A DNA stretch of 64,000 nt from Microthyrium microscopicum (taxonomy: Eukaryota). The notes beneath the pieces were generated by a model. The model saw only the letters and a list, made by a program, of their open reading frames with translations, made no database searches and was not told the DNA's origin. Positions 8,163 to 57,020 of this stretch are shown here, piece by piece; the first letter of the stretch is position 1; every line of letters starts with the position of its first letter. Location of the stretch: assembly GCA_010405405.1 (NCBI GenBank), contig MU004230.1, positions 840,627 through 904,626 of the forward strand, in the 5' to 3' direction. The position numbers and the translations under genes are program-made.

Positions 8163-9140
8163 CTACAATGGAGAAGGAGGCTTGTATGCATCCAGACTCT
8201 TGGAAGCGACTTCAGTCCAACCGTCCTTAGCAGCACCACCATTGAACCAAGCTGCTTCAGACTCGTTTCCTCGAAGCACGTAGTTCACCCAATGAGCTCC
8301 AGCCACGCCATAAACTCCACCATTGAGATCATTGAAAGTGCCGCCGTGACCAGCAGGGGGCCAGTTGCCTTTCCATGCTGGAGTGCCAGCTGCAATCGCA
8401 GCATAATCGCGGTTTCCCTGCGTTGATGTTAGATCAGATCCAATTACGTACATCTCCACTTACACCAGAGTAAGCCATGTCTTTTGGCCCGCCCAAGAAA
8501 TAGAAATGTGGCTTGTTGGTCTTCGTTCCCTTTGCACCCATACCGCCACTGTTAAAGATACCCATTACAGTAACTCGTGGATCAGAAGTGATTCCTTGTG
8601 CCTCTCCTCCTCCACAGCTTTGACCAGCTGCTGCAATTCTAGAAGTATCCAAATGCGCCCATTTTCCCTTTCCAGCGTTCTTCTCTGCCCAATCGATCGC
8701 GGTGGTCAAGAATTTGGAAGAACTTCTGCCATATGCACCGTAGCTTTGGTAGGTCGAACCCTTTGAAGGATCTTCTGGGCCACCGTTGGCGATTACTACC
8801 ACACCTTGGGAGGCAATTTGGAGGAGGAAAGGGGCCATAATGGTTCCAACCTTCAGACATCCTCCGTTACCCCAGACCATGAGTGGCATCTTGGATCCAG
8901 CTGGAATGTTTTTGGGTTGGTACAAAGTATGCTCAGGAAGCTCAGGGTCGGCAAAATAGTGCTGTATAGCATTAGCATTTATGCAAGATATCTACAGGTA
9001 GGTTTTCTAACAGGAGGAGAGAACTTTCCAGTCCCTGGTGACGCGAGTGTTTCTGGTGTGTTCACTTTTCCACCCGGCTGCTGGGCACTTGCGCCGGCTG
9101 CCATGAGGACAACTGCCTCTAGTAGAAAGGAGCTCTTCAT
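8163..9140 (-). CDS. Secreted alpha/beta hydrolase (chlorophyllase/dienelactone-hydrolase-like); introns 8962-9011 and 8418-8463
   Basis: Signal peptide MKSSFLLEAVVLMAAGASA; VWGNGGC oxyanion region, nucleophile elbow AAGQSCGG, YFLGGPKDMAY (Asp), AGHGGTF (His). Confidence 0.85.
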
Positions 9141-10113
9141 TTTCAATATCGTGAGCCAAAAAGGGACGCTCTCCCAGTTCAAATATGGTCCTTTGTATTC
9201 GACACTTGAATCCAGGAAGCGAATGTTGAATGCGAAGATCAAGCTGAGCTCAAATTAAATCTTCTTGAAATACTCCAAGATTAACATTTCAATTGATTAA
9301 GTGCCTAGCATCATAATTCAACTCCTGTCAAGAACTCTGTCAACTAACCAATTATGTCCAGTCAGATTCGGAACTGCCGATTACGTGGTGGGACACTGAC
9401 CACCAATACTCTAACGACATATAACACGTTCTTAAGGAGTTGGTAGATAACTTAGAGAGGGAGGGCATTTAGGGTATTGAATCTTATTCTGATGAACTCG
9501 TAATGGTTATCATACGATTGAAAGTTTGTTGAAGAACTTCGAGTCGAAACGTATCTTTATTTGTATCTAGTTTCTGCTCGTCTGCCAACCAGTCGGTAGC
9601 TAGCTTTTAAGGTACTAAACTAAAAGTTAATAAGATATTCCCATTACACCACGTAATTTATTGCTCTGTGATCTGATTAATTGACTCATAACCATCTTTG
9701 GCCGAGGACAAGGTTGTCATGTGCATTCACTCAATTGTTGTGAGACTTATAGTTAAAAGAAGGGATGGGCACCGTCTGATTTTGATAAAAGAATACCATC
9801 GAACTTGTCTATCAACCTGGCCCAAGTTAGAAATCGAGTTAATGAAGATATATTTGTTATACAGCTAGGGATTGTTGTAGTGCCTATTTTCCTGCATTCT
9901 TTACGAGCTTTCTTCGAAAACTTTGACCTTTCTTGGATACAAGACCTGCTTTTTGCAGCTCGTCACTGAAACATTATTTCAGTATGCGAGCAGATAACAT
10001 CTCGTTTTGAAGATATGGCTTTTGTCGTCATTTCTATAACCATGTTAGAGCCTATTTATGAGACGCTAGAGTAGCCTTCAAGCTTTACTGCGAATTTTGG
10101 GGCACGCGTGGTG

Positions 10114-10128
10114 TATATATATAAAAAG
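10114..10128 (+). promoter_or_regulatory. TATA element upstream of the putative Pol III ncRNA
   Basis: TATATATATAAAAAG ending ~35 nt before an A-box consensus match. Confidence 0.55.
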
Positions 10129-10149
10129 TTCGGAAATACTATTAACTAA

Positions 10150-10390
10150 TTTGAGCAGCACTTGGCCCAGCGGTTTACGCTGGGCTTCCCCCTCCCCTGT
10201 ATTATATTTCATACCAATCCCCCGGGTTCATAGATGGGGCACCGATCTCGTGGATCATGGGAAAAAGACGGGCGAGTCTTTTATTCAGTCTTCATTCAAG
10301 TCACCAATTTCTCCAACCTTCTCTCCCCCTCCTTCGGGATGGGGAGGATGTAGTGGAGAGGTTGGTGAGTTGAATGAAGGTTGATTTTTT
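10150..10390 (+). ncRNA. Putative RNA polymerase III-transcribed structured ncRNA / milRNA precursor (5' end approximate)
   Basis: A-box TGGCCCAGCGG (10163-10173); 8-bp hairpin 10165-10185; 48-bp imperfect stem 10285-10332/10337-10384 closed by a C(UUCG)G tetraloop; T6 directly after the stem. Confidence 0.6.
10385..10390 (+). terminator. Oligo-T (T6) Pol III-type terminator
   Basis: TTTTTT immediately after the 48-bp stem; a second T5 run at 10396-10400. Confidence 0.5.
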
Positions 10391-11224
10391 GGTAATTTTT
10401 GTTGTTGTTTACAAAGTTCTTTTGATAGTTGCGCGGGTCAAATCTGGCTGGGGCCATTTTTATTTTGCATCATAATATCTAGTTTTGATAGTGTTGACAT
10501 TCATATATACATCTACACGTTCAATATCTTTTTTTCAAACCTCGATATAACTTGTTTGAGGCATCGTGTGTCTTTCAATTTGATCAGAAACGATTTCTTC
10601 ATATTGATGCTTTGCCTGGTTTTGACCAATAACCATGTTGTATGACGTAGGCCCCAAAATTTGCCTAGATCTGAGAATAACAACTTTTAATTTTAGACTG
10701 CTGCATGAGACTACATAAACGCTGCCTGTTACTAAGAAAAGAATTCTCGAAGGTTACAATCGGAACTTCGGAAGGCGATGTTTACTGTGAATATCTTTTG
10801 CAGCACAATCTATTGCTTAATGATAAAATGCCATTTATGTTCGAGAATAACGCCTACAATCTCATTTCGAAGGGTTGCAGTCATAATCTACCTCATAAAA
10901 CTACTAATCTACGATTACTCAATCCTGTTCAGCCTCGTGGTCAGCCTTATTGAAACCAAATGCAGTTGGAAGCAACCATGTGCTAGTCAAGAAGCGGGAA
11001 GGCGCCTGCTTCCATGCACGTTTTGATAGGGTGACGCTACTTCACGTCAACCAGGCTGATCCGCCACCACCACTCTTTTACAACATCTACCACCACTTTC
11101 TAAATACTTCTTCACCTATACTATATCTGCTTTCCTATGCGATACTTCAGACCCAGATATTCAGACCATCGGAGAGCAATCTGCAATCTCCTGAGACGTC
11201 AAATGTGTTATACCAATACGCCTC

Positions 11225-13373
11225 ATGCGGTCCTACTACTTCCACCTCGCGTTTGAGCTCTCTCCCTCCCGTACTAGTAAGAAGTTTGGAGAGGCGGATA
11301 GTGAAGCTTTTTGTCCGTCATCAGGAACCAACATCTTCGAAGATCCGTTTCCAGCACACTCTACCATCGCTTGGGGCGAAACCTTTGATAATAACTACAA
11401 GCGGCCAATCCATCAACGACACAGCAGCGACCCCATCGCATTCCAGAAAGCACGTCTACCACGCGGCGAAGGACCTGGCTCATCATATAAGGCATCCTTG
11501 GCTCTAAAATCAATAGCAAAACACAAAAACTCCTCGGTTGGGAAAGATTGGCGTTTTGACAAAGTGTCAATTGTGAGCATCGACATGGAGCAATCAGGGA
11601 ATGGAAGACCTCGCTATGGGAGAGGAAAATCCATGAGCCATGATCAACCCCCGGAGGTTCTGCCTAGTGGTGTTGCGACCAAGGCATCGTTCATTCCACC
11701 TAATCCAAAGAACACGGATGTGGGCTGGGGAGTTGTTCATCTCTATCGCGATTCGGAGGAAACTCCTGGTCTATACGATGGTATTGTGGAATCGAAACTC
11801 GCCGAGAGTAGTCAGACAGCACAGCAATTTGACCCGGATGGCTGCTCTACACTGTGTATTCTGGCCATTCCGTCTTATATGAGCCCTTCTGACCTGTTGG
11901 GATTTGTTGGAGAGCATACTCGCGAAGATGTCAGTCACTTTCGCTTGATTCGTACTGGACGAGCGAACAAATACATGGTGCTCATGAAGTTCCGTGATGC
12001 TCGCAAGGCAAAAGAATGGCAGAAAGAATGGAACGGAAAGTCTTTCAACAGCATGGAGGTAAGTGAAGAGAACCTCACTCTTTGAGAAAACCTAAAATTT
12101 TGCATAGCCAGAATACTGCCATGTTGTGTTTGTACAGTCCATTACGTTCCAAACCACAGATCAACCAGAGAAGCCATCGAGCTATCCCAACATGACAAAT
12201 GACCCATTTAGTCCGTCATCTCAACCTAGCGCTGCCGCATCTAGTGCCACCGCCGACTCACCTATCGCTACCTCTCTTACCAACAAGCCGTTCGCGCCTC
12301 CCACTCCAGCACTGGTAGAGCTGCCAACCTGTCCAGTATGCCTCGAGCGAATGGATGAAACGACAGGTCTTCTCACGATTCTTTGCCAGCATGTTTTCCA
12401 CTGCGCATGTCTAGAAAAGTGGCGCGGCACTGGCTGCCCTGTTTGCCGATATACCCAGAGCAATAGTATTCCTGGGATAGGGCGAGTATCGAGCAGTGCC
12501 GACGATACACCATCATCTTGCAGCACATGCGGTGCGGACCAAAACTTGTGGATCTGCCTCATCTGTGGTAATGTTGGATGTGGTCGATATGACAGCGCTC
12601 ATGCTTTTGCGCATTGGGAAGAGACTAAACATAGCTACGCAATGGACATCGCAACACAACATGTTTGGGATTATGCTGGAGATGGTTATGTTCACCGACT
12701 TATCCAAAACCAGGCGGATGGCAAACTGTTGGATCTACCCGCCGCCAGCAAGGGAACCAAAAATGGTGAGGCTGTAATGGCAGCATATGGAGCCGATATG
12801 GTTCCTAGAGAAAAAATGGAGGCCATGGGAAATGAGTACACCTATTTGCTCACAAGTCAACTCGATAGTCAGCGACTCTACTTTGAAGAGCAGCTGGAAC
12901 GAGCGGTTGACAAGGCCAGCAAGGCAGCATCATCAGCAGAAAAGGCGAATTCCACGGTGGAATCATTGGTGCAGAAGTTGGAGATGCTGCAGACAAGTCA
13001 CGAAGAAACTCTCACACAGCTCAAAAGCCTCGACAAAGAAGTGGAGCGAACCAAAAAGCGAGCAGAGAAATCAGATACACTGGCGCGCAAGCTTGGCAAT
13101 GACTGGAAGGAAGAAAAGACGGTCAACGACTCTCTCATGGAGCGTATCAGATTCCTCGACACCAAAATGGCTGATGTGGAGCAGAAACGTCAACAGCTTG
13201 AGGCTGAGAAGCTTGATCTGGAGGAGCAAAATCGCGATCTTTCATTCTTCATCAGCAGCGCAGATAAGCTCAAGGATGCGGGCGAGGATGTGCAGGAGGG
13301 AACTATGGAAGTGGGAGCTGCTCCGCCTGAGCCATCTTCGACTGGCAAGAGACGAAAAGGACGCAAGAAGTAG
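11225..13373 (+). CDS. ETP1: BRAP2/IMP-family RING-H2 + ZnF-UBP E3 ubiquitin ligase; intron 12059-12107
   Basis: BRAP2 domain (LCILAIPSYMSPSDLLGF...FNSME|PEYCHVVFV), RING ELPTCPVCLERMD...CQHVFHCACL...CPVCRY, ZnF-UBP WICLICGNVGCGRY...HVWDYAGDGYVHRL, C-terminal coiled coil. Confidence 0.93.
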
Positions 13374-14459
13374 ACCAGTCAATGCAGTAGTTGGGTGCTA
13401 GTTGTTATTGTTTAGCGAAGGCGTTTGGATGGATAGTAGTCAGTCTTGAATTCTTTGACAGATTGAGATGCAGACAGGACCAATGAGGCTGTAGAACTGA
13501 TCATATATAGAATCCTATCAATGAGCATGCTTTGAATTATGGTGCTTAGAGCTATGGGTCGGCTGGTATCTTAGTAGATTCAATCAATCAATTGACTAGA
13601 TGCGAACCTAACCCGCTTGAGTAGTACATGGATGGCAGTGCTTCAAGGGGTCATCCCATTATGCATGGTAGATGGTAGTAAGGTGGCAGTGTTGGTGATG
13701 GAGCGCAATTCTTGGCCGAGTGTAGGAGGAATGTTGCTCCGCCTCGTGGGAAGTTTGGTGTTGAAGTTGCGGGGATGGCGCTCCTTCCCTTTAGTGAGTC
13801 GTGGGTTCCCTGCAAAAGATCAACAAGGTAACCGGATTAGGACACCGCGACTGCGCATTTTTAGTGACTCCTTCCGTAATCCCACCAGCCCAAATTCTAA
13901 CCACTTACCGCGCAAATTCGAGGTTCCATCATCCTAATTACGGTTCTAAAGCGCATTCATAACTCGCTGCTTGTACTCGAATCGTTCTTTTCATCTTCCC
14001 TTACCCTCTACAACTTTTGTCTAAATCTCCAATTCGAACGGTGCGCTATCCCGAGTTTCTCAGTTCCTCTATCGCTGATACTCAATAAGGCTACAAGGCT
14101 ATCAATTGATCTTTCCTCAGCCACAAGCCATTCGCCAAACTCAACACCCAAAAACCATCACCTCTTGTCGCTATTCTGTGGCTTGAACGCCTTTTTCGAT
14201 TAACTCGCCTGTTACACCTCTACTTTGAAATTGTAAGTTGAGGCTGTGTATAACATATTACTTTCTACAATTGTAGAGTATATAACCTCGTTCGTCTCCC
14301 ACCTTTGGACAAATCTCCTACTTCCACCACCAACACTAACACTATCATCCAGCACTCCAAGCAATTCAATCTCGAATTCTTGTATTTGGCGCCTAAAAGT
14401 AAAAATCCCGAATCCTGGATTATCAACTTCTCGCCAACCACAACCTCAACCAAATCGCA

Positions 14460-38250: not shown

Positions 38251-38550
38251 CAATTTGCTGGTTTGCGATTGGAATTTCATTTGGAGGCTGGCAAGGCCTG
38301 GACTCAGTGGACTGTATAGAATACTCCGGCAAGAAGACCGAAATGCTTCAGAATCCTACCGGTGACCTGAGCGATCTTTGTTTAGTCTCTATTGGAATGG
38401 AGGAAACCGAATTGAATCTGTCAAATAAGACAATTCTATGGCTGCGGATAGAAAGCAGATAACAGACAATAAGGTATATAAGGGAGCAGTTCGTCTACAT
38501 GAATTGTATCCAACTGGACATCAAGAAAGACAACCACCTCCACCTCCACC

Positions 38551-40421
38551 ATGACAGACTACGACCTCTCCGATAAGAAAGAAGGCCTTGAGCCTAACAT
38601 TCATTCTAGCAGCGATAGTAACAATGGCCAACAACAAGTCGTCACGTTGGTGGAAGAAGGTACAGTTTCAAAGATCACAAAGACTTCTTCTATCATTATG
38701 GTTCTGATATCGGGGCTTGCTCTTTTCTCTGATGGCTACAATGCTCAAATTATTGGTTACATGAATCCCTTATTTGCCAAATTGTATCCAGAAGCATTCA
38801 CCAAAACCATAAAGACGCGCCTATCAAACTCCTATCTCATCGGAGAAATCTTTGGCATGCTTTTCTTTGGATATGCCATCGACATGCTCGGTCGAAGGAC
38901 AGGAATTTTCTTTGCGACACTTTTCCTAGTCTTGGGAATCATTCTCGCTACCGCGGCACATGGAACGACACAAACTGGCTTGTTCTGGATGATGATTGTT
39001 GGGCGTGGTGTTGCTGGCTTTGGCGCTGGAGGTGACTGCCATCCAGTGCTTTTTATTGATCTGCTGATGCTAACGTCCTGGATAGGCGAATACCCAACTT
39101 GCGCGACGGGTTCAGCGGAAGCGGGCGATGAGACTGAATACGTTCGACGCCGCCGAGGCATGCTTGTAGCCGTCGCCACAGATTTTGCGATTGACTTTGG
39201 CTTCGTCATTGCGGGAGTAGTCGCTCTTATTGTTTTGGCAGCATACCATCAAAATATTAGCGACGGAGTTTGGCGAGTTAGCTTCGGGCTGGGATTTATC
39301 TTGCCAGTCGCATTGTTGTTTTTTCGATTGAGGCTTGTCAACAGCACCCAGTACCGGAAACACGCCATCAAGCACAACATTCCATACTGGCTGGCGATTA
39401 AGAAGTACTGGGTGCCTTTGCTCGGAGTCTCGCTTTCTTGGTTCATGTACGATTTTGTGGTAAGTCAATCATTCTTAATCTTTGCAAGCCATGGAAAGCA
39501 GAGCTGCTTGGGTTTGATCAGTACAAGATCACGAACAGAGCCAACGCGCTCAAAAGACAACACGGTTTTTGCAATATCAAATCGTATTCCCCATCGCATT
39601 CCATGGCAACCATAGCACTCAATTCGGAACGCATCTTATGGTAGCCATCGAATGCGATGGGAGATGCGAGCTTCTTGGTTCATCGGATATCATTAATAAT
39701 TCTGGTTCGAAATGTGGTTTACACGGGGAAAGCCGTTTTGTTGGTTAAGATCCTCGAGCTAACAGACATCTAGACTTATCCGTTTGGCATATTTTCGAGC
39801 ACCATCATCGGGACACTAAATCCGAACGACAGCTTGGTCCAAAACATTGGCTACGGCACTGTCGTCAACTGCTTTTATCTTCCTGGTTGCATCGTCGGAG
39901 GATTCTTAATGGACAAAATCGGACGCAAACAGACCATGTCGCTGGGTTTCCTACTTTGGGCAATCCTCGCTTTCATCATCGGCGGAGCAATCGGGCCAAT
40001 CCAGTCTGTATTCCCTCTCTTCGTCGTTCTGTATGGCATATTCAACTCTCTCGGCGAGATGGGACCTGGTGTAGCTACATTCGTATGCGGTGCTGAATCC
40101 TTCCCAACACCTCTCCGAGGCCACTTTCTAGGTTTCGCTGCAGCTGTTGGCAAAGCTGGAGCTGCCATTGGCACCCAGGTTTTTACTCCAATCCAGGACT
40201 CGTTCGATGACCCGCAAAAGGGCGTACAAGGCGTGTTCCTGATTGGGGCTGCATTTGCTCTGACGGGATGCATAATTTCCTGGTTTATGATTCCGGATAA
40301 AGAACGAGACCTGGAGGATGAGGATGTCAAATTCAGACTGTATCTGGAGCAGCATGGATATACGGGAACATTTGGCGAAAGTCTTGAGGAGGAAATCAAG
40401 ACTACAAACTTCAAGATCTAA
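38551..40421 (+). CDS. GIT1: GIT1-like MFS glycerophosphodiester/organophosphate permease; introns 39032-39085 and 39460-39773
   Basis: SGLALFSDGYNAQIIG, GMLFFGYAIDMLGRR, GRGVAGFGAG|GEYPTCATGSAE, WFMYDFV|TYPFGIFSSTII, GEMGPG...AESFPTPLRGHFLGFAAAVGKAGAAIGTQ. Confidence 0.88.
39582..39669 (+). repeat. 34-bp inverted repeat (hairpin) within intron 2 of the permease
   Basis: Arms 39582-39615 and 39636-39669: 28 Watson-Crick pairs, 3 G-U, 3 mismatches, 20-nt loop. Confidence 0.9.
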
Positions 40422-47781: not shown

Positions 47782-48882
47782 ATGAACTTTCCTGCTGTTT
47801 CCACACCACGAACCAGCCAAGCCAAAATCAACACGCTGCTTACAACCCTCCAGCAGCAGATTGCCGCACCAACTGCCTGCTCCATCTGTGGGAGCAACCT
47901 CACCACTGAAACCGCATGTATTTTGCACTGTAAACACTGCTACTGCGTAGAATGCATCACACACTGGGCTGAAGTCGCTGACCATGAACGTAACGGCATT
48001 ACTTGCCCCTACTGCCGCGCCTACTTCAAATCACTATACGGCATCAACACGAATCCCGCCAGACTCTGGCGCCGAACAGTCTACACCGGCGGCGCGGACG
48101 GTGAGACAGACGATGGCCTCAGCCAAGCTGAACGCTATCCACCAGCCGTCCGTCCTCCATCGCCCTCGATACAGATTCCCCCATGGGAACGCGACACGCC
48201 ACTTGACCAATTTGCCGTTCCACCCTCGCCAACTCGTCCATATGCCTATGCAGGTGCAGATCAGTCTATGCCAGAGCTTCATAGGCGATGGTATGAAGAG
48301 CAACTTGCAGCGCGAGCAGAAGGTCGTGCGCCCAGACCAGTTGGACACGCGACCGCTGGAGCGTCAAATGATGCTTTCTCGCCTGCTGGACCATCACGAC
48401 CTCAACCTGTAATTGCTCAATACACCTATCATACGCCTCTGCTAAACCCTGAGCACGCTGGCTTACCACCAACGGCAAATGCTGTCGCTCCCAGTGGTTG
48501 GACGCGTAACTATGGGAGTAACGGAGAACCTCTGCCCGCGGCAAATACTATGGCGACGCCTCCTACAGCTCCGCATATGGCCCAAGGTTTCGCTCCAGGA
48601 ATGGGACATCCATCACCCGCGAATGCTATCAGAGCTCCAGCATATCCGCCACCAATGCAGCAACATATGGGAGCTCCAGCATATATGCGACCGGGACAGC
48701 CACCTGTAGGACTTCCGCCATATCCACAACCAGGACAGCAGTACTACTACACGGGGCAGCCAGTATTTCCACAGCCAGGACAATTTGCTCCGCAACAGCC
48801 TGCACAGCCTGGCTATCAATATGGCGGAAGTTTTACCTACAGAGCCCGTCATAGTGATCCACCTGGACAGCGACGTTTCTGA
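47782..48882 (+). CDS. RING-finger (C3HC4) protein with a Pro/Gln/Tyr-rich low-complexity C-terminus
   Basis: CSIC...LHCKHCYCVECITHW...CPYCR; long P/Q/G/Y-rich tail; ATG at 47782. Confidence 0.8.
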   Translation: MNFPAVSTPRTSQAKINTLLTTLQQQIAAPTACSICGSNLTTETACILHCKHCYCVECITHWAEVADHERNGITCPYCRAYFKSLYGINTNPARLWRRTVYTGGADGETDDGLSQAERYPPAVRPPSPSIQIPPWERDTPLDQFAVPPSPTRPYAYAGADQSMPELHRRWYEEQLAARAEGRAPRPVGHATAGASNDAFSPAGPSRPQPVIAQYTYHTPLLNPEHAGLPPTANAVAPSGWTRNYGSNGEPLPAANTMATPPTAPHMAQGFAPGMGHPSPANAIRAPAYPPPMQQHMGAPAYMRPGQPPVGLPPYPQPGQQYYYTGQPVFPQPGQFAPQQPAQPGYQYGGSFTYRARHSDPPGQRRF

Positions 48883-50994: not shown

Positions 50995-51513
50995 CACCAA
51001 TACGCTTCAAGCGCAGACCCAATGCTTGAGGACTAGAAGTGATCAGAAACGTTGGATTTGAAAAGAATCATATTGGCACAGCTGGCACTGAATTCCAAAG
51101 CTTTTTTCATCTAATGTTAATCACACAACACATAAACAAGCACTGATCAAGGGAGAGCCACGTGATATGATTAGATCTTGATGTCGGCCAAATATCGGAA
51201 CCAAATCCACGCAAATTCTAGTTGACAGGCGGCAAAATAAGCACATTTCACAATAGCGCGCTTATTCCGACGCCAGAAGCTCAACGCCAAGGTTTATGGT
51301 CCAAGCTCCTGGTAGCAACGACCTCTACTTCAATTTGTAAACACTGGTCGCGCTCATAACTCTTGCTTCTAACAACCATCATCACTCTATTGCTCTACAC
51401 TTTTTGGTTCATCACCACTTCCAAATTAGGAAGCAGATACGCGCTCTAACTCCTCCTCATTCTAGCCATTACCCAGATCTACAACTATAGTAAGGAATAG
51501 AAACCCTGGGGCA

Positions 51514-53685
51514 ATGCCTCCCGAGAATGCCCACATGTCGTCTGGGCGCCTGGCCACCTTCATGGTGGGCCAGGGCCCAAAACGTCGAGCCTCGTCAGCG
51601 AAAAAGCGCGGCGGCGCTGCCCTCCTACGCTGGCCGCACGCCAAACCAAGCCCAGAAGAGCTTGCCAAATCAGGGTTCTATTACGTTCCCAGCGCCTCAA
51701 GTCCCGACAACTGCCAATGCTTTGCCTGCGGAGTCATGCTCGATGGTTGGGAACCGGAGGACATACCGGCATTAGAGCATCATGCCCATAGGACCGAATG
51801 CGCTTGGGCGCTCCAGTGCTATATCAAACATAAATTCGACATTGACGAACCCATTGACGAAGACCCAATGTCCGAAGAATATGTCAAAGGACGCGAAGCT
51901 ACCTTCGAAGGATGGCCTCACGAAGGCAAAAGAGGTTGGAAGTGCAAGGTCGCGAAGGTTTGTCGCGTTTTTTGTTCTCCAGGCGGGCGCTAATACATCT
52001 TAGATGGTTGAGGCCGGTTGGTTCTTCGACCCAAGTCCATCAATGGAGGATGGCGTTACCTGCGCATACTGCCAAACAGAAATTGGTGGATGGGAGCGCA
52101 AAGATGATCCTATGTAAGTCTCCTGGCATCTCTTCTCAACAAGTACTCAATCCTTTTCAGTGAGGAACATAAAAAGCGATCAGATTGCGCGTTCTTTGAA
52201 CTCGTTGATCGTTACGCTTCAACCCGTCCCCCAAAAGCTAAGCGAGCCCGAACTTCTAAGGCCTCAAGAGCTTCCTCTCAATCAAACACATCGATGATGT
52301 CCATGCCCGCGCTTGATGCGACTATTCTCACCGAGCCTGATGATGACACGGTGCTCACCACAGCTTCAAAGTCCTCAAAAGGTCGTAAAAAGGCCGTGGG
52401 CGCCAAAGCCACCAAGGGACGGTCCAAAAAATCAGTGATCTTGGACGAAGAACGCTTTGTGGATGCAACTGAGCCTCTCATTGCTGATGTGAAACCTGTT
52501 CGACAAACACGACGCCAAGCAAGCAGACAAGCTTCTGCACAGATCGACACGTCCAACTCAGACATCCAGCCGAAAGCCACACGCGGTAAGGCCGCAAAAG
52601 CTGCGGCGAGAGTCATCTCCATTGCTGAGGATCCCTCATCTCCACCTGCAAGAGGCACCAAACGCATGAGCGACGGCTCTGAAAAAGACGACTCTGCTGC
52701 TTCTAATGATACTGTCATAAGATCGCAGCCTAAAACCCAAAAACAAGGCACTAAACGCACATCCAATGGCAAAGCTAAAACTTCCGAGCTCTATTCTTCC
52801 ATCATTATACTTGATGAGGCTCCGGCAATATTCGAAGATACCACCAGTCCTATGCCTGCAAAGCGGGCTAAAAGGGCAGTTTCCCGCCAGCCATCGCGTC
52901 AGCCATCGAGACAGCCTCTCCAAGAGATCGCACCAGAAGCCCCTCCAGCCAGTATAGATGAGTTTAAGATGTTCTCTAACAGCGATTTCGACCAGGCTAT
53001 ATCCGGCACACCAGAGCAAGCTACACCTGTGCCATCTCAGGATGGCGAGGAGTCCGATCCACCCACACCAACGCCAGTCCACAAATCAATCTCTATGCCA
53101 AAGCGAAAGAGTGGGCGGACTACTGCTGCAACACCTCGTGCCACGATCGGAACTCCAGCGAAGGCGCAATCTGCACAACGCATGGCTACGCCGTCAATTT
53201 CTCCACAGGCATCAGACGCCGAAAATCAACCTCCCTCCAGCCGCCCGAATATCCGCGGCCTCCAACTCAACCCCATCTCGCCTATGCGCCTGCCATTGCA
53301 AAGCACACCAAAAACATCTCCATCCAAAAACATCGTCTCTCGCCTTCGCACCGAGTTCCCTTGGTCACCTGCCGATCTAGATCTGGTATTCGCTGAGCTT
53401 TCTCCCTCCAAGCGCGCTGAGCCAGATAAGGAGAACATCGTCCCAGTTCATCCCAGCGCAGATATGAACAATCTCGACAAGAAAGGTCTCCATGACACAG
53501 TCGCAGCCGTTCGTCAGCACATGACCACCGAAGAACGCAATATGACCGTGGAGCAATGGATTCGCCATATCGCGCGCAAGAACGAGGCTTCGCTTAAAGC
53601 GCAATGTGAGGCACGTGTGACCATGTTTGAGCGACAGGCTGCGCGCGCTATGCGAGCACTGGAGGGGATTGAAGTCCAACGCTAA
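51514..53685 (+). CDS. BIR1: Bir1/survivin-like chromosomal passenger protein (2 BIR domains); introns 51958-52003, 52114-52160
   Basis: RLATF...WPH...LAKSGFYY...CFACGVMLDGWEPEDIPALEH...C; second BIR REATF..WPH...MVEAGW..CAYC...GWERKDDP; C-terminal MTVEQWIR...FERQAARAMRALEGI. Confidence 0.93.
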
Positions 53686-55624: not shown

Positions 55625-56540
55625 CTTGGGGTCTTGGGGCTATCACATCAACCCACCGCTGATTTACCTCCTTCTCTTTTTCACATCACTTCTCCAGGAG
55701 AAGTCCAAAATCAGCATGGGAGACTTGCCGCTTTCTGCGGCTGATTTGGAGCTACTCCAAGAGGCCATTCATTACGATGACTTGCGCCTGTGGCCTGCAT
55801 CTTGAGGGAGAAACTTGGATTCGCCAGGCTCTATGATGAGGTTGCCAAATCACACTTCTTGGAATCCAAGGGGTACAACATTAATCCACCGCTCATTTAC
55901 CTCTATCTTCTCTTCATACCATCTTCTCTTCATAACACTCCCTAAGCTGGTCTGGAGGGTCCGAATTTAAAATGGACCTTCACGCACTGTCTGCTGCGGA
56001 GGTGGAATTGCTTAATTTGGCAATCTCCTGCAAAGACGTGGCCCCGCCTGTTGAGGGCAAAACGCGGAGTGAAGATCTCCTCGCCTGCTACCACGCTGCT
56101 GTTACCAACAGCAGTGCTCCATTCCAGGCCAGCCCTTCAGTCGTCGACTGCCTCTGTGCGATGGCACGGCAGAGGGAGGAAGGCCAGACGGTATCAGAGG
56201 TGTTCCTGGCCTCATAAGATGATGCAGTTACCAACAGCAGTAACCCACTCCAGGTCAGCCCCAATGTCGTTGTCTGAATTCGTGAGATGGCCACCATAGA
56301 GGGAGGAAAGCCAGACGACCTCAGATGTGTTCAGTCACCTTTGGGGAAGTCATAACCGACCGTCTGGTCTGCAGCTGGAAGAAGAAGGGTCATGTCGAGA
56401 CGAGCTGCTGGAAACTCCAACATACAATGCAGCATGGAACAGGGCGAAACCTGGCTGTGCCGACTGCTACGACGAGGCCATTGCCGAGAACATAATGGGC
56501 GTATTTCAAACTGCGTGGAACATTACAGAAGTTGGCCTCG
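55625..56540 (+). pseudogene. Decayed, internally duplicated protein gene
   Basis: Duplicated leader plus start (MGDLPLSAADLELLQEAI at 55716; MDLHALSAAEVELLNLAI at 55972); 126-bp in-frame duplication (56101/56227) with stops and a frameshift in copy 2. Confidence 0.45.
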
Positions 56541-57020
56541 ATGCACGAGAATTCATCATTAATCTCCAGAACCCCTTTGCAAGCTGGACAGAATACACAA
56601 GTCTCGCATGTCTTCGCCTTTCTCATCAACCATCTTCCTTGTCAACCATCTTCCTCATCAATCATCCTCAGGACCCATGGCAAACTGGGCAGAATACACA
56701 AGTCCTGAGTCTCTTCGTCTTCCTTATCAACCATCCGGTCAAATTCAGGCCTTGATGCACGAGACTTCGTCATTAATCCTCAGAACCCCTGGCAAGCCAG
56801 AATACGCAAGTCTGTGGTGTTTTTGTCTTTCTTATCAACCATCTGGTTAAATCCGCTACTCAACAAATGGTCGCCGCGTCAACGCAAACGCATTACAACG
56901 CAGTCGACTACTACGGTGTCTTCGTCCTTCTCATACATCACTTAATCAAATCCACTATCAAACAGATGGTCGCACCGTCAACGCAAACGCATTACAACGC
57001 AGTCAACTACTACAGTGTCA
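56540..57020. repeat. Degenerate tandem array of about five ~100-bp units
   Basis: Recurring CAGAATACRCAAGTC...TCTT..TCATCAACCATC (three times) and ATGGTCGC..CGTCAACGCAAACGCATTACAACGCAGTCRACTACTACRGTGTC (twice, ~56867 and ~56966). Confidence 0.8.

What the first reader, a model, noticed from the sequence alone, without database searches (positions are those of the whole stretch)
10114..10401. Unexplained Pol III-type structured ncRNA (milRNA-precursor-like) in a 2-kb intergenic region
Seen, in order: TATATATATAAAAAG (10114-10128); exact A-box match TGGCCCAGCGG (10163-10173) overlapping a perfect 8-bp hairpin; small hairpin AAAAGAC/GTCTTTT; a gap-free 48-bp stem (10285-10332/10337-10384) with six G-U pairs and a C(UUCG)G tetraloop; then T6. 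G-U pairs and a UUCG loop suggest selection on RNA structure on this strand rather than a DNA inverted repeat. I find no cloverleaf and no U1/U2/U4/U5/U6, SRP or RNase P/MRP signature. Known: the major Neurospora milRNA loci are Pol III transcripts with TATA-like elements and oligo-T ends. Inference: a ~240-nt Pol III RNA, possibly a pri-milRNA or a new ncRNA class. No convincing B-box was seen; an Sm-like AATTTTTG follows at 10394-10401.
Basis: partly seen in the sequence, partly recalled or inferred. Interest (0 to 1): 0.8.

Follow-up and report, generated by a model that had tools for sequence, protein, structure and literature searches.

The report
Single-copy long hairpin, weakly transcribed, fungal intergenic
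A real and unusually stable 100-base hairpin sits behind a TATA box between two genes of a leaf-litter fungus and shows a trace of transcription, so it may be a young hairpin-RNA (microRNA-like) locus, but no relative, small-RNA data or polymerase evidence could be found to prove it.

Summary
The hairpin (10285-10384) is far beyond chance. It folds at -63.1 kcal/mol, z = -9.0. It is the best of 12,780 110-nt windows on both strands of the 64-kb window. It is also the best natural gap-free hairpin in 1.09 Mb of fungal DNA.

The other elements are not significant:
- the A-box match is expected about 1.5 times per window, and no B box lies nearby;
- the 5' domain folds at z = -1.7;
- the region after the Sm-like motif folds at z = 0.08.

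There is no Rfam or tRNA match. A run showing spliced mRNA holds one low-depth contig, 10155-10308, starting 27 nt after the TATA element. It is the only cover in the 1,956-nt intergenic gap. DNA contigs cross the locus unbroken, which argues against a young MITE/SINE. No homologue turned up in 80 loci encoding relatives of the downstream protein.

Best reading: a lineage-restricted, weakly transcribed hairpin-RNA locus. The polymerase and any Dicer processing are unproven.

The parts
10114..10128 (+). TATA-like element TATATATATAAAAAG, the putative promoter of the unit
   Evidence: Sequence read directly. The RNA contig begins 27 nt after its end. Function is inferred.
10155..10308 (.). The only RNA-run contig in the intergenic gap (154 nt, depth 5.5, 0 differences). 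The strand is not known from a contig.
   Evidence: table 8, record 6. The same run shows a GT..AG splice joint (12056 to 12106) that is absent from the DNA runs, so it holds real RNA.
10163..10173 (+). A-box-like TGGCCCAGCGG, at chance level
   Evidence: 1 match against 1.51 expected. There is no B-box-like site within about 1.4 kb (nearest at 11788, minus strand).
10164..10186 (+). 5' hairpin with 8 Watson-Crick pairs, 1 G-U pair and loop GUUUA
   Evidence: The 5' domain as a whole (10150-10284) is not significant: z = -1.70, with 11 of 200 shuffles folding as well.
10221..10261 (+). Predicted imperfect hairpin 2
   Evidence: This is a prediction only.
10263..10282 (+). 7-bp hairpin AAAAGAC/GTCTTTT with a 6-nt loop
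10285..10384 (+). Long imperfect hairpin: 30-bp lower stem (4 G-U pairs, one G-G mismatch), 4x5 internal loop, 11-bp upper stem, cUUCGg loop at 10332-10337
10385..10390 (+). T6 directly after the stem. It is the first run of five or more T downstream of the TATA, and a candidate Pol III terminator.
   Evidence: Its role is inferred.
10394..10401 (+). Sm-like AATTTTTG, not supported as an Sm site
   Evidence: It lies after the T6. The downstream stretch 10385-10480 shows no structure beyond shuffles (z = 0.08). No snRNA family matched.

Best explanation
This is a single-copy, lineage-restricted hairpin-RNA locus in Microthyrium microscopicum (Dothideomycetes). It lies in the divergent intergenic region between a secreted hydrolase-like gene and a BRAP2/Etp1-like RING-UBP gene.

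Proposed working:
- An inverted duplication created a roughly 100-nt palindrome, which has since decayed to 41 of 48 paired positions (inferred).
- The palindrome lies in a short plus-strand transcription unit that starts about 10150-10155, some 25-40 nt after the TATA element at 10114-10128. The RNA trace is shown. The strand and the exact 5' end are inferred.
- The unit probably ends at the T6 at 10385-10390 (inferred).
- The RNA folds into a 30-bp near-perfect lower stem, an internal loop and an upper stem capped by cUUCGg (predicted).
- A stem of that length is a natural Dicer substrate. The most likely fate is processing into small RNAs of about 21-24 nt, as for fungal milRNA or hairpin-siRNA precursors (inferred, untested).

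The polymerase is open. The TATA, the absence of an internal run of five or more T, and the T6 at the stem foot fit a TATA-dependent Pol III unit like Neurospora milR-1. A low-level Pol II transcript fits the data equally well. I put Pol III at roughly 0.2. Whether any small RNA has a target is unknown.
For: - Hairpin stability: -63.1 kcal/mol, z = -8.99, 0 of 200 shuffles as good.
- It ranks 1 of 12,780 windows across the whole 64 kb on both strands.
- It is the best natural gap-free hairpin in 1.09 Mb.
- The plus strand folds 11 kcal/mol better than the minus strand. The loop is cUUCGg on the plus strand only.
- Run X5 contains spliced mRNA, shown by the joint 12056 to 12106 that is absent from the DNA runs. 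It holds a contig at 10155-10308 with depth 5.5 and 0 differences. That contig is the only cover between 9059 and 11096.
- By my own count, a 154-nt patch dropped at random in the 1,956-nt gap would fall wholly inside 10129-10390 in 109 of 1,803 placements, about 6%.
- The contig runs 100 nt past the minus-strand T5 (A5 at 10262-10266). This fits a plus-strand unit better than a minus-strand one.
- The first run of five or more T after the TATA is the T6 at the stem foot.
- It is not coding. The 104-codon open frame 10070-10384 has no ATG and no Pfam hit.
- It matches no known structural RNA.
- It is not a multi-copy element. DNA contigs of 7,375 nt and 45,089 nt cross it unbroken, and there is no second copy in the window.
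- Precedent: Neurospora milR-1 is Pol III-transcribed from TATA-like elements without A or B boxes (PMC3547838, passages).
Against: - No small-RNA data exist for this organism among the runs served.
- The RNA contig is shallow (5.5 against 165.4 for the BRAP2-like mRNA). It may stem from only a few fragments, ends 24 nt into the 5' arm, and does not cover the loop or the 3' arm. As a contig it shows neither strand nor true ends.
- No homologue was found by blastn or nhmmer (best E = 0.15), or by a covariance model, which returned self hits only over 1,090,421 bases.
- The two closest loci (76% and 75% protein identity) have other upstream genes and no comparable intergenic hairpin. There is therefore no covariation and no sign of purifying selection.
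- The G-U excess on the plus strand (6 against 2) is not significant.
- The minus strand also folds at z = -7.84.
- The A box is at chance level and there is no B box.
- The 5' domain is not significantly structured.
- Whether the fungus has Dicer or Argonaute could not be checked, because no genome is held.
Confidence: 0.42

Rival explanations
1. The hairpin is a neutral DNA palindrome. An inverted duplication, for example by template switching during replication or as a relic of a dead foldback or MITE element, is decaying in a promoter-rich intergenic region. It has no RNA function, and the RNA trace is incidental promoter-proximal or pervasive transcription.
For: - Both strands fold far beyond shuffles, as expected of any inverted repeat.
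- The 13 non-Watson-Crick positions split 8 transition-type to 5 transversion-type. The plus/minus G-U split is 6 to 2, which is compatible with neutral decay (my reckoning).
- There is no conservation in 80 related loci.
- RNA depth is only 5.5, and the contig does not span the hairpin.
- Template switching is described as a source of new hairpins in PMC10710096 and 10.1101/2021.04.15.439925. I saw only the search listing and the starts of the abstracts.
Against: - The only RNA cover in the 1,956-nt gap falls inside the TATA-to-T6 unit and starts 27 nt after the TATA.
- The loop is the extra-stable cUUCGg on the strand that also has the TATA upstream and the T6 downstream.
- Five of the 7 mismatches cluster in one 7-position block, leaving a 30-bp lower stem with one mismatch. 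That is less scattered than uniform decay predicts.
- The available relatives are too distant (76% protein identity or less) for lack of conservation to count for much.
Confidence: 0.33
2. It is a structured small ncRNA of another, undescribed class: an RNA of about 240 nt that acts as an RNP scaffold rather than a Dicer substrate. This includes the reader's Sm-site variant.
For: - The TATA, four predicted hairpins and the T6 make a compact unit.
- The cUUCGg cap is typical of stable structural RNAs (recalled).
- No known family matches.
Against: - Only the long hairpin is significant. The 5' domain gives z = -1.70, and the region around and after the Sm-like motif gives z = 0.08.
- The Sm-like motif lies after the T6.
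- Essential scaffold RNAs are usually conserved, yet nothing was found. The search space, however, was only the neighbourhoods of genes for relatives of the downstream protein.
- A near-perfect 30-bp stem is unusual for scaffold RNAs (recalled).
Confidence: 0.1
3. It is a MITE, SINE or other mobile-element copy.
For: - The arms resemble long terminal inverted repeats.
- An A-box-like motif lies upstream.
Against: - DNA contigs of two runs cross the locus unbroken, so no near-identical second copy is indicated.
- There is no other copy in the 64-kb window or in the 80 loci.
- No flanking target-site duplication is seen: TTTTAT on the left against TTTTTT on the right, read.
- There is no B box.
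Confidence: 0.07
4. It is a DNA-level cis element, such as a cruciform or a protein-binding palindrome, that acts on the divergent promoters of the two flanking genes.
For: - It is placed between divergently oriented genes.
- A motif cluster lies just downstream: TTTTGATAG three times.
Against: - The arms are imperfect. Thirteen of 48 positions are not Watson-Crick in DNA, which disfavours cruciform extrusion (inference).
- It lies about 700 nt from the BRAP2-like mRNA start and about 1 kb from the other ATG.
- No conservation was found.
Confidence: 0.05

Closest known systems
Neurospora crassa milR-1 type pri-milRNA (Pol III, TATA-dependent; PMC3547838)
   Same: - Intergenic and non-repetitive.
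- A hairpin precursor with a TATA-like element upstream and a poly-T downstream.
- No functional A or B box pair.
   Different: - No small RNA, Argonaute association, Dicer or QIP dependence, or Pol III occupancy is shown here.
- There is no sequence similarity.
- The fungus belongs to a different class (Dothideomycetes, not Sordariomycetes).
- The stem, about 48 positions per arm, is longer than the short, animal-like hairpins reported for well-supported fungal loci (PMC9757828, section 11).
Plant-type MIRNA or hairpin-siRNA (hpRNA) precursors born from inverted duplications
   Same: - A long, nearly perfect stem with few bulges.
- Single-copy and apparently young, with no conservation.
- Weak generic covariance-model hits to plant and animal miRNA hairpin models: MIR3932 at 31.5 bits against a gathering score of 150.
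   Different: - All those hits fall far below the gathering scores, so this is not a member of any Rfam miRNA family.
- No donor or target gene with complementarity was found in the window. The best matches were 12 nt exact or 14 nt with 1 mismatch.
TATA-dependent Pol III genes (U6/SNR6-like promoters)
   Same: - A TATA about 30 nt before the apparent RNA start.
- A 5' hairpin and an oligo-T terminator.
   Different: - There is no U6 sequence. ACAGAGA is absent and there is no Rfam match.
- The polymerase was not tested.
MITE or foldback transposon relic
   Same: A palindromic architecture of about 100 bp.
   Different: It is single-copy by contig continuity and has no target-site duplication.

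Membership tests
Fungal mi/milRNA locus (criteria of PMC9757828, sections 11 and 22) | A stem-loop precursor in an intergenic or non-CDS, non-TE region | tested here: met
   The hairpin gives z = -8.99. It lies between the ATG at 9140 (minus strand) and the mRNA start at 11097. It is single-copy.
Fungal mi/milRNA locus (criteria of PMC9757828, sections 11 and 22) | No homology to structural RNAs (Rfam) | tested here: met
   There were 0 gathering-level matches in the window. In E-value mode only generic miRNA-hairpin hits appeared, far below cut-off. No tRNA was found.
Fungal mi/milRNA locus (criteria of PMC9757828, sections 11 and 22) | Small-RNA sequencing support: a dominant 19-25-nt species from the stem, replicated | not testable with these tools
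   No small-RNA run was listed. The only RNA-like holder is kept as contigs.
Fungal mi/milRNA locus (criteria of PMC9757828, sections 11 and 22) | Conservation in two or more genomes | tested here: inconclusive
   No hit in 80 metagenome loci encoding relatives of the downstream protein. Those relatives are at most 76% identical in protein, only gene neighbourhoods were searched, and no fungal genome collection is held.
Pol III type-2 (tRNA-like/SINE) gene | An internal A box together with a B box (GGTTCGANNCC-like, consensus recalled) about 30-60 nt downstream | tested here: not met
   The A-box-like match is at chance level: 1 found, 1.51 expected. The nearest B-box-like site with 1 mismatch or fewer is at 11788 on the minus strand. 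ARAGORN finds no tRNA.
TATA-dependent Pol III unit | A TATA about 25-30 nt upstream of the start, an oligo-T terminator, and no internal run of five or more T | tested here: met
   The TATA is at 10114-10128, the RNA contig starts at 10155, and the first run of five or more T is the T6 at 10385-10390. These features also fit a Pol II promoter and arise easily by chance.
TATA-dependent Pol III unit | Pol III occupancy or inhibitor sensitivity, and an uncapped, non-polyadenylated RNA | not testable with these tools
   This needs ChIP, an inhibitor assay and RACE.
Sm-class snRNA | An Sm site between two hairpins inside the mature RNA, plus family-specific conserved sequence | tested here: not met
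   AATTTTTG at 10394-10401 lies after the T6. The 3' flank shows no structure (z = 0.08). No snRNA model matched.
MITE/SINE | Many dispersed copies with target-site duplications | tested here: not met
   DNA contigs are unbroken across the locus. There is no other copy in the window or the loci. No target-site duplication was read. Old, diverged copies elsewhere in the genome could not be excluded, because no genome is held.

The most novel reading that the evidence does not exclude
The locus is a genuine TATA-dependent Pol III gene that makes an RNA of about 240 nt. Its 30-bp lower stem is diced into a milRNA or hairpin-siRNA. This would be the first Pol III-driven hairpin small-RNA gene outside Neurospora, in a basal Dothideomycete lineage, caught soon after its birth by inverted duplication.
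Probability: 0.15. Interest if true: 0.6.

Novelty: new member of a known kind. Interest (0 to 1): 0.35.

Why it matters
If the hairpin is transcribed and diced, it would be a clean, single-copy example of a newly born hairpin small-RNA gene in a fungal class where few mi/milRNA loci are well supported. If Pol III makes it, the unusual Pol III-milRNA link known from Neurospora would extend to another class. As it stands it is a well-defined candidate. One northern blot and one small-RNA library would settle it. Without them it remains an exceptional but possibly neutral palindrome.

Tried and rejected
- Rfam: at gathering thresholds over the whole window, 0 matches. In E-value mode on 9800-10800 there were 14 weak hits, all generic miRNA-like hairpins or noise far below cut-off. 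ARAGORN found 0 genes.
- Whole-genome search: no genome is held for this window.
- Sequencing runs: 5 were listed, and no holder is on record as RNA. X5 is labelled a guess, and its RNA nature rests on the splice joint seen. The uncovered parts of the gap (9059-10154 and 10309-11096 in X5) are not used as evidence.
- Homologue search in the 80 best of 325 confirmed metagenome loci encoding relatives of the downstream protein:
  - blastn and nhmmer, with the candidate and with the whole intergenic region, gave only chance-level purine-rich matches, E = 0.15 or worse;
  - single-sequence covariance model R1 gave self hits only;
  - sliding folds of the upstream parts of the 6 loci I picked (L033, L064, L047, L035, L001, L002, six of 80) gave a best of -47.7; the L064 hairpin I inspected, 421-530 at -46.2, lies inside an open reading frame.
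- Upstream-exon idea: could 10155-10308 be a spliced leader of the BRAP2-like mRNA? No joint was reported, and there is no GT after 10308 and no AG before 11097. Rejected.
- Coding idea: the 104-codon frame has no ATG and no Pfam hit. Rejected.
- Telomerase, U6, RNase P/MRP, SRP and C/D-box motifs (recalled) in 9260-11100: CCCTAA, ACAGAGA, GAAAGTCC and TGTAAT are absent. There is one TGATGA and one TTAGGG, both far from the unit.
- Target search: nothing within the window shows extended complementarity to the hairpin arms.
- Literature: 22 papers name the organism, and none of the 8 listed deals with its RNAs. I found no description of this locus. This rests on searches only.

Full report
**What is there.**
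- the TATA-like run at 10114-10128;
- TGGCCCAGCGG at 10163-10173, overlapping a hairpin of 8 Watson-Crick pairs plus a terminal G-U;
- the 7-bp AAAAGAC/GTCTTTT hairpin;
- the long inverted repeat 10285-10332/10337-10384 with a C(UUCG)G loop;
- T6 at 10385-10390;
- AATTTTTG at 10394-10401.

One correction is needed. The long stem is 48 gap-free positions, not 48 pairs. It holds 35 Watson-Crick pairs, 6 G-U pairs and 7 mismatches, and 5 of the mismatches lie in the block 10316-10322. The minimum-energy fold has four parts: a 30-bp lower stem with four G-U pairs and one G-G mismatch, a 4x5 internal loop, an 11-bp upper stem, and the tetraloop.

**Is it more than chance?** The long hairpin clearly is.
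- It folds at -63.1 kcal/mol against -31.8 +/- 3.5 for dinucleotide shuffles (z = -8.99, 0 of 200 as good).
- It ranks first of 12,780 sliding 110-nt windows on both strands of the whole window (mean -23.5, sd 7.06, runner-up -56.7).
- I counted gap-free hairpins over 1,090,421 bases (the window plus 80 fungal metagenome loci). It scores 41/48. Only a perfect 48/48 palindrome at the very end of a metagenome contig (L025) scores higher, and that is probably an assembly artefact. The next natural hits score 38/48.

The other elements are not beyond chance.
- The A-box pattern fits only a relaxed consensus, and about 1.5 matches per window are expected.
- No B-box-like site is near.
- The 5' domain 10150-10284 folds at z = -1.70.
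- The stretch after the T6, which holds the Sm-like motif, folds at z = 0.08.

**Which strand?**
- The minus strand also folds far beyond shuffles (-52.0, z = -7.84), so most of the signal is the DNA inverted repeat.
- The plus strand is 11 kcal/mol better. It has the cUUCGg loop (CGAA on the other strand), the TATA upstream and the T6 directly at the stem foot.
- The G-U argument is weak. There are six G-U pairs on plus against two C-A positions that would be G-U on minus. I reckon about p = 0.29 two-sided under a neutral 1:1 expectation.
- The minus strand has its own T5 some 20 nt after the hairpin (A5 at 10262-10266). The RNA trace described below runs 100 nt beyond it, which favours the plus-strand unit.

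**Context and organism.**
- The downstream gene is a BRAP2/Etp1-like RING-UBP protein (Pfam BRAP2, zf-RING_2 and zf-UBP).
- Its second exon is 100% identical to a protein named from Microthyrium microscopicum. The next relatives are at most 74% identical in that search.
- The upstream gene lies on the minus strand. It starts at ATG 9140 with a signal-peptide-like N-terminus.
- The candidate therefore sits in a 1,956-nt divergent intergenic region.
- The 104-codon open frame across it (10070-10384) has no ATG and no Pfam match.

**Expression.**
- Five runs hold the stretch. Four are DNA-like runs of one sample that may be the source of the assembly.
- The fifth, X5, is labelled RNA only as a guess. 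When laid, it shows a 49-nt GT..AG splice joint (12056 to 12106) that the DNA runs lack, so it does contain mRNA.
- Its BRAP2-like mRNA contig starts at 11097 with depth 165.4.
- Between 9059 and 11096 its only contig is 10155-10308, at depth 5.5 with no differences.
- That contig begins 27 nt after the TATA element and lies wholly inside the TATA-to-T6 unit. A random placement would do so about 6% of the time (109 of 1,803 positions, my count).
- The evidence is thin. It may rest on a handful of fragments. A contig shows neither strand nor true ends. It stops 24 nt into the 5' arm, so the hairpin itself is not shown to be transcribed.
- No splice signals link it to the downstream mRNA.

**Copy number.** DNA contigs of 7,375 nt (X3) and 45,089 nt (X1) cross the locus without a break. 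This argues against other near-identical copies. No second copy is in the window and no target-site duplication flanks the arms. Old, diverged copies elsewhere cannot be excluded, because no genome is held.

**Relatives.** No fungal genome collection is available. I fetched the 80 best of 325 confirmed metagenome loci that encode relatives of the downstream protein, with up to 10 kb of flank.
- blastn and nhmmer, run with both the candidate and the whole intergenic region, found nothing better than E = 0.15.
- A single-sequence covariance model of the hairpin returned only the two self hits.
- The closest loci, L033 (76%) and L064 (75%), have different, same-strand open frames upstream and no comparable intergenic hairpin. 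The L064 hairpin I inspected (421-530, -46.2) lies inside an open reading frame.

So there is no covariation evidence either way. At this divergence the absence says little beyond "not deeply conserved at this position".

**Known families.**
- Rfam gave nothing at gathering thresholds. At relaxed thresholds it gave only generic miRNA-precursor shapes far below cut-off, for example MIR3932 at 31.5 bits against 150.
- No tRNA was found.
- Recalled signature motifs of telomerase RNA, U6, RNase P/MRP and SRP are absent from the unit.
Passages of PMC3547838 state that milR-1 to milR-4 rely on Pol III, and that milR-1 lacks A and B boxes and needs TATA-like elements.
- By the tier scheme of PMC9757828 (sections 11 and 22), this locus could be at most tier 3. 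It is intergenic, not a TE and not an Rfam RNA, but it has no small-RNA support and no conservation.

**Verdict.** My best reading, at about 0.42, is a lineage-restricted hairpin-RNA locus born from an inverted duplication. It is weakly transcribed from the TATA on the plus strand and probably ends at the T6. Its 30-bp lower stem makes it a plausible Dicer substrate.

The Pol III assignment is possible, at about 0.2, but it rests on features that a Pol II promoter or chance can also supply.

The main rival, at about 0.33, is a neutral decaying palindrome with incidental transcription. Template switching is a described source of such hairpins (PMC10710096; search listing and abstract start only).

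The minor rivals are an unknown scaffold RNA, a transposon relic and a DNA-level promoter element.

The finding is real and clearly delimited. It is not yet more than a candidate, hence moderate-to-low interest.

Noticed in passing
window 10420-10428, 10483-10491, 11021-11029 (+): TTTTGATAG occurs three times, all on the plus strand. All three lie between the hairpin and the BRAP2-like mRNA start at 11097. Only 0.80 matches are expected, and 4 of 100 shuffles reach 3. It contains a GATA core, so it may be a GATA-factor promoter motif (recalled).
   Followed up: partly
window 11097-13500 (+): For the BRAP2/Etp1-like RING-UBP gene, the RNA contig starts at 11097. It confirms a 49-nt GT..AG intron at 12057-12105.
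   Followed up: yes
window 8434-9140 (-): A secreted-looking hydrolase-like gene lies here. Its ATG is at 9140 and it has a signal-peptide-like start and a GQSCGG motif. The 185-aa exon has no Pfam match. A low-depth RNA contig covers 8860-9058.
   Followed up: partly
window 51531-51650 (both strands): This is the second most stable 110-nt fold in the window (-56.7 on minus, -52.4 on plus). It lies inside the open frame 51466-51993.
   Followed up: no
window 39582-39669: An inverted repeat with 33-nt arms, 85% complementary and 22 nt apart, sits at the end of the open frame 38503-39615.
   Followed up: no
window 56078-57013 and 48627-48743: There are several tandem or direct repeat families: 62-99-nt units spaced 99-126 nt apart, and a 39-nt unit repeated three times. 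They are probably repeats within coding sequence.
   Followed up: no
L025 6270-6369: A perfect 48/48 palindrome sits at the very end of a metagenome contig. It is most likely an assembly artefact.
   Followed up: no
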